From contig CM074511.1 in assembly GCA_037379345.1 (NCBI GenBank), positions 15,562,001-15,626,000 on the forward strand: DNA of 64,000 nt. The letters are read 5' to 3'. This document shows, piece after piece, positions 42,001-48,000 of this stretch (position 1 is its first letter; each line of letters opens with the position of its first letter). This DNA comes from Perna viridis. Taxonomy: Eukaryota. The position numbers are program-made.

Positions 42001-45000
42001 TCCATGAAGGTCGAAGCAACCATCCGGTGTCAAATACCCAAATGTGCCATCATGAAATAACAAGCCACTGATGAACACACCAAAAAAGGGAAACCAATTA
42101 ATACCTGGGAAGGGTTTAAAGGTCATTTACCAGTCTTTTCCTTACATCTTTGTTCACTTAAAGGTGTTGAATCTTAAATAATCTTATTTAAATAATAACC
42201 CAATAACTTCAAGGGTGACGACCCATTTCAAAGCATTATCCATTGGCCATTTTTCAATGTCACATTTCATAAAACGCAACTTAGTGAAGTGATTTCTGTA
42301 GAAGCATTATCCAAATGAATCTCTAAAATATTCATTGTATCTTGTCTCGCGATTCGTGGCCTTAGGCTTAAACTTGTTCGTGTGTTGTGATTTTTACCCC
42401 CGATAAGAGGACATATGACAACTTTGAGGACATACGAAAAAAAAATGTTCATAAAAGAGCACACAGGCAAAACTTCGATGACGCCATTGAAAAATAGATT
42501 TATATTTATATGAAATTCGACCTTCCATTTCGGCCGTAAATGAGTTATATTTGAAGGTTCTATTTCTTTTTTCTACAAGATCAGACAGGTAGTCTTCTTT
42601 TAAGTAAAAACCATAATTTCAATCTGATGACAATTATTAGAATGCTGTGTAACTTTTAGTTTATTTAGATAAATAAAGGCCTTTTTTCTTTCAGAATGAC
42701 CTCCGAAACAGTGGAGATGACTTGACTAATCAGATGTGGTTGATGTATGTAACGTTTGAGGATTTTATATATTTATCATACCCAGGGAAATCAGAAGCAA
42801 TACTGTCAACGCGTGTTGATATAAACAATTATTTCCAAAGAAGTACTATCTCGAAATCCCATAAATCTGTGAAACAAGCAAGTGATAACGCAGATAAAGC
42901 AACCGAAGAAACGTGTGAAGAAGATAAAAAGAGACTAAATCAGAGCGATGAACATCGAATTCGGAGCGAGTTAAAACACCAATACGGAGAGGTTATCTTC
43001 TCCCATCGGTTTGCAAGAAAACGTCGTCTCAATTCGCTGACTACGGACAATACAGCATTTGACGGAGAGACAATCGATGTGTATGGTGCTAGAAACAATT
43101 TAGACAACTTTGGATCGGATTGCATTGATATGCCTTATCGCGATAAGCAAAAGATGCACGATCGTAAAAAGAAAGATCACAGATCAAATGTGACAATAAC
43201 AAAGGATTATGGGTTTGGCAATTCATGGAGAATCCGTCAATCAGGAGATGTAATTAGGAATTGTCGTTTAAATGATCAATTAGTGAACCATAATGCCTCA
43301 GAGCAAAACCCGAGGACCAAAAACCTACCCGACAATACTGGATGTCAGCGTGATAATCCCCAATTTAAACTACAAAATAGGAGTTTAAACGGGCCAGCTG
43401 ATCATTGTGTGGGATTAAGTCCTCGTAATGCTTATCCTCGGGATGTAAGCTGTAATAACCATTTAAATTTGAGCTGTAGTGCTACTAATACACCACTTTC
43501 GTTGGATTTAACGAGGGAACTAAACTGGCATAATAACATATTAAACGTCTCTGCTTTCAATCCAGGTGATTCAAAAAGTGCAAGATTTCGTTTAAAATTG
43601 GATCTACAGAACAAAATATCACCTCAGAGTCCGCGGCGAGCTATTTCAAAAGAGGACGTTATCAGCTCGCATGATACCAGTGCAACCGAATTGCCAAGAT
43701 CTGTTTCGTTTGATAATGTGCTAACACCGGAACAAGAAATGCCATCTAAAGCTCTCTCATGTGAATCTTCTCCTGTGACTATCTCAAGTGGATACGAAAG
43801 TGATTCTTTGCCTACAAACGAGGCTGACATAGACAATATTTTTGTTCAAGGAAAAAAGCGAGAACAAAACAGAACAGTTCCTCCAATGGAATTACCAATT
43901 GACTACTTTTCTATGTCGGATAGTCACCCTTCACCCCACGGACAAAAACCTATATGTTCAATTGCAATGGTGACCCGTAAACCGGAGACATTTGTGCAAA
44001 ATGAATTGATAGAGCAATCAAATTCAAATCAACCAGTTTCAAAGGACACTAGACCGCCGATGCAGTCTCCAAGGGAGAATGTTGACAATCAAACACAAGC
44101 CCGGTTTTCACCGGCACAAATAAACAATTATCAACTGACAAAGGTCGCACGTTCGATGTTTGAGATTATACATGATTTGCAGACAGAGAAAGAGCAGGAA
44201 AACAAAGCAAAATCTCGAAAACCTAAGCGCCATGTTCAGTGGCGAAAAGATAGGACAGATGTCGTTAGAAAGCCGTTAAATAATAACAGTGAAAACGAAA
44301 ATTTTCTAAATTTAAGTGCAAGTCAACGGGAAAATTGTGAACAATTGCAACAAGCTATCAATCCCGCCCAATTGTCGGCGAATGGTAAAGTGTCCGTTAA
44401 ATGTTTGAGGCGACCTTTGGGGAGTGACCCAACGTTCCAAAACCGACAATTTCTACCTCATAGCTCCGAATTTGATAGACTGACATATCTGAAAGACAGT
44501 TATCCTGAAATAGGCGTTTTAACAAGTTCTGATAAATATCCAGAATTTTCGCGACAGTTCAGTGAACCAGAAATGAGACAAGAAATAAATTCAGACAACT
44601 TTCAAATGAACCATTCTTTCGACTCGAGAGCCACTCGACATCAAATTGTGTTCGATGGCTGTGCGCCTTATGCAACCACAAAGCTTCCCGGTTGTTCACC
44701 GTATGCAACAACTAGACTGCCCGGATGCCAGACTCCTCGTCGTGATGAAAGGGACGATCATGTGTATGAAACTATTCCGGGTGATGATTTATTGCAATAT
44801 GAAGAAATAATTCGAATGAGGTTAAATGGTTTACTCCCTCACACTGGCAAGTATTTTCCCCCGGCGTTGCCAGCTCGAAATGTGAATGATAGAAAAATGT
44901 CAGAGCCAGTGACAAAAGAATGGAATGCAAACTTTCGTATGCAACAAAACTTTATCCCTAATCTCAAAGTGGCACAATCTCATAAAACAAATGCCAAATC

Positions 45001-48000
45001 TACCTCATGTGATAATAGACAACCATTGAACAAACCCAGATCGTATTCATATGACCCTACTGATGCAGCTAAAAGTGTTCCGAATGAATTATTCTCTCGA
45101 TGGTCGGCTGCAGATTTGCTAAATTATATCGATGATATTCGACAACCTCCACCAAAACGGAGGGAAAACTTTTATCATCTATTAGACAGCAAACAGAAAA
45201 GGGCATGCTTTTCCGAGTCGTTGGAAATCGAAAATAAAATCAAAAATATGGGCATAGCTTTAGAAGAACGGGAACGCTTCCGCATATCCGAAGATGGATA
45301 TACAACTATGGACGGCGATTCACTGGATATGCCACCGCCATTTTGTGGTAGTTTACAAAATATGCAATCAACATACGTGTAAAATGTGCAATTGACAAAT
45401 GATATACGAGTTCAATGTTTAAGTTCGTAGATTTCCGTTTTATAGCGGACACGGGTGTATTAATGATTTGATCTCACGCAGACTATGTACGGACGATAAA
45501 TGTCCTACACTAATAGTGCTAAATGGCTGTGATGTTTTTGAATGTGTTTGTGATATTGTAAGTCAAGTTTGTGGGTGTTTAATTATTGTATTTGATATAC
45601 AATATTAAATAATGAGAAAATCATACAGTTGTTAGGTTTACATCAAATAATGCATAAAACAAGCGGTGAAGAGGTGTTCGTACATATACCAAGAATACCA
45701 AGTTCTGGGTTTGATTTAGTATTAGTAAGTACACGCATGCATGTTTGTTTAAAAACAACATAGCAATGAAAAGAAAAACAAATCATGCTTTTTGAGGTGT
45801 CTTGTATTAGTTTCTGTTCTTATCTTCTATATTTGTAAAAGTTCTTCCATCTTCCAACTGTTTGCCAAACAAAAATCAATCTCAATTGATACAAAATAAT
45901 AATAACTCTCTTTTGCTGTGAAAGAGGTCACCAAAAGGTCTTTCACAAGTGTAAGCACACCTTTTTAAAAAGCTCTGGAAGGCCCCAACAGCAAAAGTAC
46001 TAAAATCCACGGTAACAGAACGATGATGACATTTCTTCACAAATAACACTAATAAAATGCTTCGGAGCGCAGCTAGATACACCAACAGAAGCCGAATCCT
46101 GAACAGATGGGGCTAATGTGGACACGGTCAAATAACTTATATCTAAATACTTTCAGTAGACTTCTAAAAGATATGAACAGACGACTTGCAAAGTGCTTTC
46201 TATAAATTTCAGAAGTTTGATAAACAAAAAACAAAACCCTAGATCAAAAGAAAAACAATTCACAATGTCACTTCCTTTAGGTTTTTGAGTTAAAGTAAAA
46301 GAAAAAAAGGTTTCCCCATATTTGTATAAACTCAAAGATGCAAAAAAATATATAAAACAAAAGGAAGCTTACACTAATAGCAATCAACTATTCAATAAAG
46401 TTTAATCAAAATTGCATGAAGAATTCGCAAATATCCTATCTCTTTTTATATCAAATTCCTACGCAGGCAGGGAATTTTCATGAGGAATCCAAATCCTTTT
46501 TATTCAAAATCAGACCAGAAATATAAGTTTTTTAAAGGGGGTAGCACCACTTTGGCCACCAAAATACTAACAATGCCAGATGACATTTAAACTCTCTTAA
46601 ATATTCTTAAAACAGAATTGTATAAGAAACAAATTTTTAAAAAAAACGTCAAAATTAAATTTGAAGTAAACCTTCTACATCAATTTTAAATAAACACCTA
46701 TTTACCTTGGTTCCCATGATTACTCTTCTCTTTACCTCTTTTGACTCAATTTTCCAGTAGGGGCCAATGACCCCCATTTTAAATAGCAAGCTTTCTTTAA
46801 CACAAAGTAATAATATATCAAATTCCATGACATATGGTTTACTACAACTAAAGTTAAAGCCAAAAAAAAACAAACAAACAAACAAACAAAAAAAAAAACA
46901 ACGCCGACGACGACAACAACGACACCACAACATAATACGCAATTTTTTGCGGTCGTATAAAATCTGGTTGAGCAATATCATTTCTAATGAAAACCGACAA
47001 GTTATTTTATATATTTTTGTATCCAAGTTTTGTAACGGCGAAAAAAAAAATTGGTAAATGTTTGTCACGGCAATACTTCTGATGCAAAAGCGTTCTGAGA
47101 AAACAGTTAAGATGACCTAAATTTACGTTTTTCGAGGTTTTGTTACTGTAAAAAGTTTGTTTTTTTTTTCATGAAAAATACTTTTACACTGAGAGGGAAA
47201 AAGAGCGGTTCCGAAGAGTGCTCCCCGCTTAAAACCCATATAAAAATTATATTTATGTACACAGCGGAACACAATTCTCACAGAAAAAGTTGCAATGCAT
47301 ATCTAAACTTGTCCCGATATAGACTGCCTTCGAATATATGTTGAAAATAGTTTGTAGGTTGAGCTATATCAACTTGAAAAAAAAAACCTTTCCATCAAAC
47401 ATGTATACACACAACACTGGTCGTTCGAACTACAGTTAAAGAATATAAATAATGGACAATCCTCTTAGGCCAATTATTTCGTACCCTTCCCTCTAAATGA
47501 AAGGAGCCGCTGCAGTGTAGCTCTTGGGCACATGTTTAAATATACCGTATAAACAGTCCTTTTCTAACGGTGCAGCTCGATGCATTTCACACGAGGCATT
47601 ATTTATAGCTGCGTAAAAGTCAGAAAGATTAGTATTACGATTTATTTTCAATGGATAAACGCAGATTTGATTAAGTTTTAATACATACAACACCAACAAA
47701 CTTCTCGCGAAAGGTTAAGTTTCGGTTAACAAAATGACCTATTAAAAATGCTTACAAAAACACAGTCTTCTTTCAAAACGGTTTACATATGCACATATTG
47801 ATAAACAAATTTTAACATGCAAATTATTTTTACTATACAAAATAAAAAGACGGGAAGGTTCGTAAGATAAGAAAGAATTTCTTAACATTTTACTATCATG
47901 CAGTAAAGGGCATCTGTAATACTATTGATTTTTGTGAATGAAGCTCAAGTAAGCAAGGTAGTAACCGCGGAGTAAACATAAACAGAAATCTTGATGAATT

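What the first reader, a model, noticed from the sequence alone, without database searches (positions are those of the whole stretch)
44657..45382. A receptor tail without a receptor: Robo-CC1-like tandem PYATT motifs and an SH2/SH3/PDZ cassette in a disordered protein
Seen: GCAPYATTKLP-GCSPYATTRLP tandem with divergent synonymous codons, then HVYETIP, QYEEII, PPALPARN, ENFYHLL, DGYTTM and terminal STYV. No signal peptide, transmembrane helix or recognisable folded domain in ~890 aa. Known: TPYATT is the Robo CC1 tyrosine motif; pYEEI binds Src SH2; YxxM binds PI3K p85; PxxPxR is a class II SH3 ligand; T-x-V-COOH is a class I PDZ ligand. Inference: an undescribed soluble docking protein or decoy mimicking guidance-receptor tails. 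With gene 1 upstream on the same strand there is limited room for a large ectodomain, and none was seen.
Basis: partly seen in the sequence, partly recalled or inferred. Interest (0 to 1): 0.7.

Follow-up and report, generated by a model that had tools for sequence, protein, structure and literature searches.

The report
Disordered tyrosine-motif tail exon, N-terminus unknown
This is a real last coding exon of an invertebrate gene that encodes a long unfolded protein tail with a duplicated PYATT peptide and an ITAM-like tyrosine pair, but its first exon was not found, so calling it a "tail without a receptor" is not yet justified.

Summary
They lie at the end of a 901-codon open frame (42677-45382, +) that chance cannot explain. 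No fold, family, transmembrane helix or relative was found for it.

Two features stand out statistically. One is the tandem 11-residue PYATT unit: 24 of 33 bases are identical, with 7 synonymous and 2 replacement changes. The remaining motifs are individually near chance level.

The frame opens exactly at a strong phase-0 splice acceptor (exon start 42695). The 13 codons before the first ATG look coding, so this is probably a terminal exon and not a whole protein.

No upstream exon was found. None of 112 upstream plus-strand frames shows an ectodomain family, so a Robo-like receptor part is excluded nearby. A short anchor exon is not excluded.

The upstream multi-AT-hook gene ends on an unpaired phase-0 donor (21351). 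However, a sharp CpG-depletion boundary at 30.0 kb argues that it is a separate gene.

Verdict: an ordinary but uncharacterised disordered adaptor-like tail. The "decoy" reading is untested.

The parts
42680..42694 (+). Splice acceptor: a pyrimidine tract followed by CAG, directly after the in-frame stop at 42674-42676
   Evidence: Read. My simple acceptor score is 9, against 7 and 7 for the two acceptors of the upstream gene.
42695..45382 (+). Terminal coding exon: 895 codons plus the stop (P0002), starting in phase 0
   Evidence: Codon log-likelihood is 290.5 bits. It is still 115.9 bits under a model trained only on the AT-hook gene; the best of the other 108 strong acceptors scores 2.4.
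42734..42736 (+). First in-frame ATG (residue 14 of the exon), in a poor context (C at -3, T at +4)
   Evidence: The 13 codons before it score 6.61 bits, a value reached by 0.34% of 15426 stop-free non-coding windows.
44657..44689 (+). Repeat unit 1, GCAPYATTKLP
44690..44722 (+). Repeat unit 2, GCSPYATTRLP. A third 'GC' follows at 44723.
   Evidence: 24 of 33 nt identical, 7 synonymous and 2 replacement differences, P = 0.003. GC occurs 4 times (0.1% of shuffles) and PGC twice (0.07%).
44756..44809 (+). Canonical ITAM-type motif, D-x-x-YETI-x7-YEEI (aa 688-705)
   Evidence: one match; 0.38% of 20000 shuffles have one or more.
44861..44878 (+). PALPAR, matching the PxxPxR pattern for an SH3 ligand
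   Evidence: 2 PxxPx[RK] sites in the exon; 10% of shuffles reach 2.
45173..45184 (+). YHLL (a YxxL-type motif) inside a predicted helix (model helices at aa 805-815 and 819-850)
   Evidence: Model confidence is low.
45299..45310 (+). YTTM (YxxM)
   Evidence: 2 YxxM sites; 10% of shuffles reach 2.
45368..45379 (+). C-terminal STYV, a class I PDZ-ligand pattern; stop at 45380-45382
   Evidence: 3% of shuffles end in [ST]x[VILF]. The same four residues are the PDZ-binding end of kalirin-7 (one passage).
45604..45609 (+). ATTAAA, the first candidate polyadenylation signal after the stop. Others lie at 46051, 46394, 46654 and 46689.
   Evidence: Pattern match only.
30001..50700 (.). Block without CpG depletion (CpG o/e 0.59-1.15) that contains the exon. 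The flanks are depleted: 0.07-0.46 before 30.0 kb and 0.09-0.35 after about 50.7 kb.
21351..21356 (+). GTAAGT donor, phase 0, ending the last visible exon (20784-21350) of the upstream multi-AT-hook gene. No partner exon was found for it.
30492..30527 (+). Speculative first coding exon: 12 codons, G at -3 and G at +4 of the ATG, consensus donor ATG|GTAAGT, 0.5 kb inside the CpG-rich block
   Evidence: Not above chance: 8 such sites in the 128 kb scanned, or about 0.8 expected per 12.7 kb.
31342..31437 (+). Speculative first coding exon: 32 codons starting with a 17-residue hydrophobic stretch and a CxC, phase-0 donor
   Evidence: the only such site in 128 kb. But the criteria were set after seeing it, the donor is weak (C at +3, score 4.1), and its codon score is -12.3.

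Best explanation
The stretch 42695-45382 is the 3'-terminal coding exon of a gene separate from the upstream AT-hook gene. That gene is probably not methylated in the germline.

The exon encodes about 895 residues of intrinsically disordered, hydrophilic polypeptide. The start codon, and an unknown but probably small N-terminal piece, lie on one or more undetected upstream exons within 30.0-42.7 kb.

The last 240 residues form a motif module:
- two adjacent GC(A/S)PYATT(K/R)LP units
- 22 residues later, a canonical ITAM (YETI-x7-YEEI)
- a PxxPxR site
- two further tyrosine motifs
- a class I PDZ ligand (STYV) at the very end

The most likely mode of action is inferred, not shown. It would be a cytoplasmic scaffold switched by tyrosine phosphorylation. 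A Src-family kinase would phosphorylate the ITAM, which would then hold a tandem-SH2 kinase of the Syk/Shark type. The PYATT tyrosines would be further kinase substrates or docking sites. The C-terminus would tether the protein to a PDZ scaffold at the membrane or a junction.

It is not a Robo, and it carries no large ectodomain.
For: Shown:
- The frame is real coding sequence.
- It opens at a strong phase-0 acceptor directly after an in-frame stop.
- A codon model trained only downstream of the first ATG scores the 13 codons before that ATG at 6.61 bits. That is matched by 0.34% of 15426 non-coding windows and lies at the 82nd percentile of 869 true coding windows.
- CpG o/e is 0.92-1.01 across the exon and 0.59-1.15 across 30.0-50.7 kb, against 0.07-0.46 across the AT-hook gene. 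The steps are sharp, at 30.0 and about 50.7 kb.
- The oyster methylome paper reports methylated CpGs accumulating in gene bodies, with 5' bias limited to insects (PMC4378273, abstract; PMC2996979, abstract).
- No fold or family was found.
- The duplicated unit evolves under constraint on the peptide.
- A canonical ITAM is rare by chance, 0.38% of shuffles.
- None of 112 upstream plus-strand frames of 30 aa or more shows an Ig, FN3 or other receptor family.

Inferred from established knowledge:
- SFK-ITAM-Syk/Shark signalling exists in invertebrates, as in Draper (PMC4503800, passages).
- STYV is a working PDZ ligand in kalirin-7 (10.1101/744508, one passage).
- YEEI as the preferred Src-family SH2 ligand and PxxPxR as a class II SH3 ligand are recalled from memory.
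Against: - No upstream exon was found. The best plus-strand codon score in 30-42.7 kb is 12.2, against 11.7 on the minus strand. The AG-to-GT exon scan gave 1 plus-strand and 3 minus-strand candidates, all with negative scores.
- The only detectable phase-compatible donor upstream belongs to the AT-hook gene.
- My scans also failed to find that gene's own last exon, so they are insensitive to short exons.
- Short-motif matches are poor predictors of function. YxxM, PxxPx[RK] and Yxx[LIV] are each at chance level, and the motif set was picked after the fact.
- No homologue could be examined, so conservation is unknown.
- A low-confidence single-sequence model does not prove disorder.
- The CpG argument assumes a non-insect invertebrate with mosaic methylation. 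The organism is not known.
Confidence: 0.5

Rival explanations
1. One gene with the upstream multi-AT-hook protein. The phase-0 donor at 21351 splices over a 21.3-kb intron to the phase-0 acceptor at 42694. The 'tail' is then the C-terminal region of a large nuclear DNA-binding protein. Its tyrosine and PDZ motifs would be coincidental or would serve other roles; for example, K-x5-PY at aa 663-670 fits the loose C-terminal half of a PY-type nuclear import signal (pattern recalled from memory).
For: - The last visible AT-hook exon ends on AAT|GTAAGT in phase 0, with a stop six codons into the intron, so that gene continues.
- All four delimited exon boundaries of that gene are phase 0.
- 109 strong acceptors between 21.4 and 42.7 kb were read in phase 0. 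Only the tail exon scores as coding under a model trained on the AT-hook exons: 115.9 bits against 2.4 or less for the rest.
- The tail carries basic clusters, RKRR and RKKK.
Against: - The CpG o/e step at 30.0 kb would fall in the middle of the proposed intron. The AT-hook exons are depleted (0.26 at 10-12 kb) while the tail exon is not (0.97-1.01).
- The tail has no AT-hook core (0 GRP).
- There is no similarity between the tail and the AT-hook exons; the best BLASTP E-value is 0.05.
- The other introns delimited in that gene are 0.4-6.6 kb.
- The K-x5-PY pattern is met by 59% of shuffles.
Confidence: 0.2
2. One reading: a complete soluble protein of 882 residues that starts at the ATG at 42734. 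It would be either a single-exon gene or a gene with only a non-coding 5' exon, and it would act as a free cytoplasmic docking protein or decoy.
For: - No upstream coding exon was detected.
- There is no signal peptide or transmembrane segment in the frame.
Against: - The 13 codons before the ATG look coding, P = 0.0034 against non-coding windows.
- The ATG has C at -3 and T at +4.
- The frame begins exactly at a strong acceptor.
- 'Decoy of guidance-receptor tails' rests on a five-residue match only. No other Robo-type motif was found.
Confidence: 0.15
3. A fast-evolving, lineage-restricted disordered protein whose listed SH2, SH3 and PDZ matches are chance. Only the duplicated unit would be functional, and in some other way. 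For example, the three regularly spaced GC dipeptides could be lipidation or metal-binding sites.
For: - Most motif classes are individually at chance level.
- The motif classes were chosen after seeing the sequence.
- The Atlas look-alikes are generic disordered proteins, scoring 0.85 and 0.81, below the level the tool counts as more than a lead.
- GC and PGC are themselves enriched, at 0.1% and 0.07% of shuffles.
Against: - The canonical ITAM (0.38%) and YEEI (0.4%) are rare by chance.
- 11 of the 26 tyrosines lie in the last 246 of 895 residues.
- The C-terminus is identical to a proven PDZ ligand.
Confidence: 0.3

Closest known systems
Robo (Roundabout) cytoplasmic motif CC1
   Same: The core PYATT is the CC1 tyrosine motif as I recall it from Kidd et al. 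1998 and Bashaw et al. 2000; this was not seen in any call. Robo tails are likewise disordered and carry four conserved motifs, CC0-CC3 (PMC7535936, passages of section 14).
   Different: - No Ig or FN3 exon and no transmembrane segment were found.
- No LPPPP-type or polyproline motif is present.
- The motif here is duplicated head to tail inside a GC...LP frame.
- An ITAM and a PDZ ligand follow it; I do not recall either in Robo tails.
Transmembrane adaptor proteins (LAT, NTAL, PAG/Cbp)
   Same: These have a long unstructured cytoplasmic tail with several tyrosine motifs that dock SH2 proteins after phosphorylation. Their ectodomain is only a few residues long and is not a receptor. PAG binds the PDZ protein EBP50 through its C-terminus (PMC4861716, passages). 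This is the closest known case of a receptor-type tail without a receptor.
   Different: - No transmembrane or palmitoylation exon has been shown here. The one hydrophobic candidate (31342-31437) is speculative.
- No sequence similarity was tested or claimed.
- These adaptors are described from vertebrate leukocytes.
ITAM-bearing receptors and signalling chains (for example Drosophila Draper-I)
   Same: The spacing and residues fit the ITAM consensus, with acidic residues before the first tyrosine. The SFK-ITAM-Syk/Shark pathway works in invertebrates (PMC4503800, passages).
   Different: Draper has a large EGF-repeat ectodomain and an NPxY motif. Here NPxY is absent (0 matches) and no ectodomain was found.
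Kalirin-7 C-terminus
   Same: The last four residues, STYV, are identical, and they act as a PDZ-binding motif; changing V to D destroys the motif (10.1101/744508, one passage).
   Different: Only the four-residue end is shared. Kalirin is a folded multidomain exchange factor. No homology is implied.
Generic long disordered last-exon proteins (for example exophilin-5)
   Same: These are the nearest clusters in the language-model search, scoring 0.85 and 0.84 for the whole exon and 0.81 for aa 640-895.
   Different: The scores are below 0.9, where a third of shuffled proteins also find a hit of 0.8 or more. This is a likeness of composition, not of kinship.

Membership tests
Robo receptors | Ectodomain of five Ig and three FN3 domains | tested here: not met
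   Pfam was run on 112 plus-strand frames of 30 aa or more in 29.5-42.7 kb. No Ig or FN3 family appeared; 10 families had one member each, at E = 0.0002-0.099. The best, F-box_5, is the translation of a 33-bp tandem repeat and is below its cut-off. Codon scans found no exon. DNA beyond the window was not examined.
Robo receptors | Single transmembrane helix before the tail | tested here: not met
   The highest 19-residue hydropathy mean in the exon is 0.52.
Robo receptors | CC1 motif (PYATT core; recalled from memory) | tested here: met
   Two copies, at aa 658 and 669.
Robo receptors | CC2/CC3 proline motifs (LPPPP-type EVH1 ligand, polyproline; recalled from memory) | tested here: not met
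   There are 0 matches to [FLWY]PPPP, 0 to [FLWY]Px[AILVFMP]P, and 0 runs of four or more prolines.
Robo receptors | CC0 motif | not tested
   I could not recall its consensus reliably. The figure supplements of PMC7535936 that show it are not held.
Transmembrane adaptor proteins | Very short ectodomain, one transmembrane helix, and juxtamembrane palmitoylated cysteines | tested here: inconclusive
   These are absent from the exon. One hydrophobic ATG exon candidate with a CxC lies at 31342-31437. It is unique in the 128 kb scanned but was found with post hoc criteria and has a weak donor.
Transmembrane adaptor proteins | Long unstructured tail with several SH2-docking tyrosine motifs | tested here: met
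   The exon has 26 tyrosines, 11 of them in the last 246 residues. Motifs are listed. No confident fold was predicted. Phosphorylation was not tested.
ITAM-bearing signalling proteins | [DE]xxYxx[LI]-x6-8-Yxx[LI] | tested here: met
   There is one match at aa 688-705; 0.38% of 20000 shuffles have one.
ITAM-bearing signalling proteins | Phosphorylation by Src-family kinases and binding of a tandem-SH2 kinase | not testable with these tools
   This needs biochemistry.
Class I PDZ ligands | [ST]-x-hydrophobic residue at the free C-terminus | tested here: met
   T-Y-V followed by a stop; 3% of shuffles end this way.
Multi-AT-hook proteins (as part of the upstream gene) | GRP-core AT-hooks | tested here: not met
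   There are 0 GRP cores in the tail exon. By contrast, [RKP]GRP occurs 22 times in plus frames at 5427-20047 and 0 times in minus frames.

The most novel reading that the evidence does not exclude
The gene encodes an invertebrate counterpart of the vertebrate transmembrane or lipid-anchored adaptors. A few-residue N-terminal anchor, encoded on a tiny upstream exon, would carry an 895-residue tail. That tail combines a duplicated Robo-CC1-type tyrosine unit, a canonical ITAM and a PDZ ligand.

Such a protein would be a signalling tail supplied in trans to ligand-binding partners that lack one, as DAP12 or FcR-gamma serve immune receptors. It would link guidance-type and ITAM/Syk-type signalling in one molecule.
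Probability: 0.1. Interest if true: 0.7.

Novelty: new member of a known kind. Interest (0 to 1): 0.3.

Why it matters
If the motif module works as read, it would be a non-vertebrate adaptor that joins an ITAM to a Robo-type tyrosine motif and a PDZ anchor. That would bear on how ITAM/Syk signalling was used before adaptive immunity.

As the evidence stands, it is one of many uncharacterised disordered proteins in an invertebrate genome. Its only firm special feature is a selectively maintained duplicated 11-residue peptide.

There are two practical lessons. A frame that opens at a splice acceptor should not be read as a whole protein. And CpG-depletion steps can be used to set gene boundaries in such genomes.

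Tried and rejected
- **Pfam on the whole frame:** only RcpB, E = 0.05, below its cut-off.
- **Pfam exon by exon on seven pieces of the upstream gene and other candidates:** only AT_hook (E = 0.01, 16.1 bits, below 17.4) and Tma16 (E = 0.23).
- **PDB sequence search:** 4 sequences at E up to 10 for the whole frame, best 1.5. For aa 645-730, 3 sequences, best 0.84 (RNase P p25). 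Both are chance level.
- **ESM Atlas:** generic look-alikes at 0.85 and 0.81.
- **AlphaFold2, single sequence:** mean pLDDT 34.6. I therefore ran no fold search, because a model this poor gives meaningless matches. I did not use the second fold job.
- **Rfam on the window:** 0 matches.
- **Prokaryotic genome contigs:** 92 pattern matches, 0 confirmed.
- **BLASTP of the tail against the AT-hook exons, against itself and against the window:** no similarity beyond itself.
- **F-box lead:** E = 0.0002 among the 112 frames. I traced it to the translated 33-bp tandem repeat at 32150-32581; it scores 21.3 bits against a cut-off of 25.5, and no single stretch passes. Rejected. My two guesses for its source were both wrong: 38873-39061 (checked, with a pattern scan) and 33515-33715.
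- **EGF_MSP1_1:** E = 0.062 in one of the 112 frames, which is chance level.
- **First-exon searches:** searches gave only speculative candidates.
- **Search for the AT-hook gene's last exon:** nothing found.
- **Literature:** 'PYATT' alone returned 1274 papers, mostly the surname. With 'Robo' and 'CC1' it returned 13, of which only PMC7535936 was relevant. A search for five six- or seven-letter variants returned 7 papers, and none described another protein with the motif. The listing counts TPYATT and PYATTQ once each in PMC7535936, but 'find' gave 0 in the held main text.
- **Complex prediction:** not used, because no partner protein is at hand.

Full report
**What is there.** The finding's coordinates (44657-45382) cover the last 242 codons of a stop-to-stop frame at 42677..45382 on the plus strand, 901 codons long. 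The window has no N. It is about 32% G+C and gave no match that would make me take it for human.

Stops make up 6.5% of all triplets, so 901 open codons have a probability of about 10^-26.5. The other two plus frames of the same stretch carry 53 and 86 stops. Among 43 frames of 90 aa or more in the window, the next longest (658 aa, 10054..12030) belongs to the upstream gene. This is real coding sequence.

**The observation.**
- two adjacent 11-residue units, GCAPYATTKLP (44657-44689) and GCSPYATTRLP (44690-44722)
- YETI (Y691) and YEEI (Y702)
- PALPAR (aa 723)
- YHLL (aa 827)
- YTTM (aa 869)
- STYV, followed by the stop at 45380

The two units share 24 of 33 bases. They differ by 7 synonymous and 2 replacement changes (pS 0.75, pN 0.085). 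Under neutrality, 2 or fewer replacements among 9 changes has P = 0.003. The duplication is therefore old, and both copies have been kept at the peptide level. This is the strongest internal evidence that the region is translated and functional.

In 20000 composition-preserving shuffles, the observed count was reached as follows:

| Motif | Shuffles reaching the observed count |
|---|---|
| PYATT twice | 0 of 20000 |
| YEEI | 0.4% |
| [ST]x[VILF] at the C-terminus | 3% |
| YxxM (two copies) | 10% |
| PxxPx[RK] (two copies) | 10% |
| Yxx[LIV] (five copies) | 37% |
| Canonical ITAM | 0.38% |

Together with the acidic residues before them they form one canonical ITAM, D-x-x-YETI-x7-YEEI.

The joint presence of the four motif classes in the last 250 residues occurred in 0 and 1 of 20000 shuffles. 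Those classes were chosen after seeing the sequence, so I do not count this as a test.

**No fold, no family.**
- Pfam gives only a sub-threshold RcpB match.
- The PDB sequence search gives nothing below E = 0.8.
- The language-model atlas gives generic disordered look-alikes at 0.85 and 0.81, a level that shuffled proteins often reach.
- Single-sequence AlphaFold2 gives mean pLDDT 34.6, with 0 of 895 residues at 70 or above and a few isolated helices.
- The highest 19-residue hydropathy mean is 0.52, so there is no transmembrane helix or signal peptide in the frame.

**It is probably an exon, not a whole protein.** Six codons after the in-frame stop at 42674-42676 comes a pyrimidine tract ending in CAG (42680-42694). 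By my simple score it is stronger than the two acceptors I could delimit in the upstream gene. Reading from 42695 puts the exon in phase 0.

The first in-frame ATG is 13 codons further on (42734) and has C at -3 and T at +4. A codon model trained only on the sequence after that ATG gives those 13 codons 6.61 bits. Only 0.34% of 15426 stop-free non-coding windows from the same region score as high, and the value lies at the 82nd percentile of true coding windows. Translation therefore most likely enters this exon from an upstream exon.

**Where is the upstream exon?** I could not find it.
- Codon scans of 30-42.7 kb give plus-strand maxima (12.2 bits) no better than the minus strand (11.7).
- An acceptor-to-donor scan gave 1 plus-strand and 3 minus-strand candidates, all with negative coding scores.
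- Pfam on all 112 plus-strand frames of 30 aa or more in 29.5-42.7 kb found no Ig, FN3 or other receptor family.
- Its best hit, F-box_5 at E = 0.0002, turned out to be the translation of a 33-bp tandem repeat, below the cut-off.

A Robo-sized ectodomain needs about 2.5 kb of coding sequence in many exons, so it is excluded in this interval. A short exon is not excluded.

Two speculative first exons exist, and neither rises above chance:
- **30492-30527:** 12 codons, a good ATG context and a consensus donor, 0.5 kb inside the CpG-rich block. Such sites occur 8 times in the 128 kb scanned.
- **31342-31437:** 32 codons beginning with a hydrophobic stretch and a CxC. It is the only such site in 128 kb, but I set the criteria after seeing it, the donor is weak, and the codon score is -12.3.

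**Relation to 'gene 1'.** The upstream gene is a multi-AT-hook protein. [RKP]GRP cores occur 22 times in plus frames between 5427 and 20047 and never in minus frames. Its exons score 51-261 bits.

Its last visible exon (20784-21350) ends on AAT|GTAAGT in phase 0, with a stop six codons into the intron. That gene is therefore not finished there.

I read 109 strong acceptors between 21.4 and 42.7 kb in phase 0. Only the tail exon scores as coding, even under a model trained on the AT-hook exons: 115.9 bits against 2.4 or less. On splicing logic alone, the tail could be that gene's last exon.

Against this stands the CpG profile:

| Region | CpG observed/expected |
|---|---|
| 1 to 30.0 kb | 0.07-0.46 |
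| 30.0 to 50.7 kb | 0.59-1.15 |
| beyond about 50.7 kb | 0.09-0.35 |

The steps take place within about 1 kb. The AT-hook exons sit at 0.26 and the tail exon at 0.97-1.01.

In molluscs, CpG depletion marks gene bodies methylated in the germline. The oyster methylome paper states that 5'-biased gene-body methylation is probably limited to insects (PMC2996979 and PMC4378273, abstracts only). A single transcription unit that is depleted for 30 kb and untouched for its last 15 kb, with the step in mid-intron, is therefore unlikely.

The tail also has no AT-hook and no similarity to the AT-hook exons.

My weights are about 0.2 for one gene, 0.15 for a complete protein starting at M14, and the remainder for a separate gene with a small undetected 5' coding exon. 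My failure to find the AT-hook gene's own last exon shows how insensitive these scans are to short exons.

**The joined step was left out.** I did not build, search or fold any joined protein: neither AT-hook exon plus tail, nor candidate first exon plus tail.

**How it most likely works (inferred).** The last 240 residues look like a phosphotyrosine and PDZ docking module on a disordered chain. The ITAM fits the Src-family-kinase, ITAM, Syk/Shark pathway, which operates in invertebrates through Draper (PMC4503800, passages). STYV is identical to the proven PDZ-binding end of kalirin-7 (10.1101/744508, one passage). YEEI as the optimal Src-family SH2 ligand, YxxM for p85 and PxxPxR for SH3 are recalled from memory.

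The closest working analogy is the vertebrate transmembrane adaptors (LAT, NTAL, PAG). These have an ectodomain of a few residues, one helix, palmitoylated cysteines and a long tyrosine-rich tail, and PAG also binds a PDZ protein through its C-terminus (PMC4861716, passages). They really are receptor-type tails without receptors, and their anchor would fit on an exon too small for my scans to detect.

**Comparison with Robo.** Only the five-residue CC1 core (recalled from memory) is shared. There is no LPPPP-type motif and no polyproline run, and no ectodomain or transmembrane segment. Robo membership fails. 'Mimicry of guidance-receptor tails' is not supported beyond that one motif.

The eLife paper confirms that Robo tails are disordered and carry CC0-CC3 (PMC7535936, passages of section 14). 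Its figure supplements with the motif alignments were not available to me.

**What stayed unchecked.** Whether the gene is already annotated in its source genome is unknown. Supplementary files of papers were closed.

**Verdict.** The thing is a real terminal exon for a disordered, motif-rich tail with a selectively maintained duplicated PYATT peptide and a canonical ITAM. It is not a Robo, and its N-terminus is unknown. I rate interest at 0.3 and novelty as a new member of a known kind.

Noticed in passing
window 5427-21350 (+), main exons 10315-12015, 12852-13163, 19756-20352, 20784-21350: A large multi-AT-hook gene. It has 22 [RKP]GRP cores in plus frames and none in minus frames, mostly as a repeated GRPPGAKNKPK-type unit about 100 nt apart in one 1.7-kb exon. 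Smaller AT-hook-like exons lie further upstream (5403-5462, 7785-7838, 8524-8586). It probably starts before the window and ends after 21350, because its last visible exon ends on a GTAAGT donor.
   Followed up: partly
window 1-64000, steps at about 30.0 kb and about 50.7 kb: There are three sharply bounded CpG-depletion domains: o/e 0.07-0.46, then 0.59-1.15, then 0.09-0.35. This is the signature of mosaic germline methylation and is usable as a gene-boundary marker.
   Followed up: yes
window 32129-32553: A tandem repeat of 33-bp period, about 10 or more copies, open in several frames on both strands. Its translation gave a spurious F-box_5 Pfam hit.
   Followed up: yes
window 22690-22833 and about 10054-10230: A 16-bp-period tandem repeat with 7 copies. 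A second tandem repeat lies just before the big AT-hook exon and reads as three copies of an 18-residue unit in the frame listing.
   Followed up: no
window 26816-26864 and 27227-27275: A perfect 49-nt inverted repeat with 362 nt between the arms. Both arms raise coding-like scores on both strands. It is likely a small foldback or MITE-like element.
   Followed up: no
window 16895-17209, 24922-25089 and 25250-25417: A dispersed repeat. Similar peptide stretches recur in frames at 16.9 kb and 25.2 kb, and there is a direct repeat of 168 nt at 83% identity. Pfam gives nothing significant.
   Followed up: partly
window 54353-54484 (-): The best coding-like segment outside the two plus-strand genes (19.5 bits, an acidic 44-residue stretch). 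It lies in the third, CpG-depleted domain and may be an exon of a minus-strand gene. There is no Pfam match.
   Followed up: partly
window 29617-29665: AATAAA followed by an (AAAAC)n-like microsatellite, just before the CpG step at 30.0 kb. It could be the 3' end of the AT-hook gene or the tail of a SINE.
   Followed up: no
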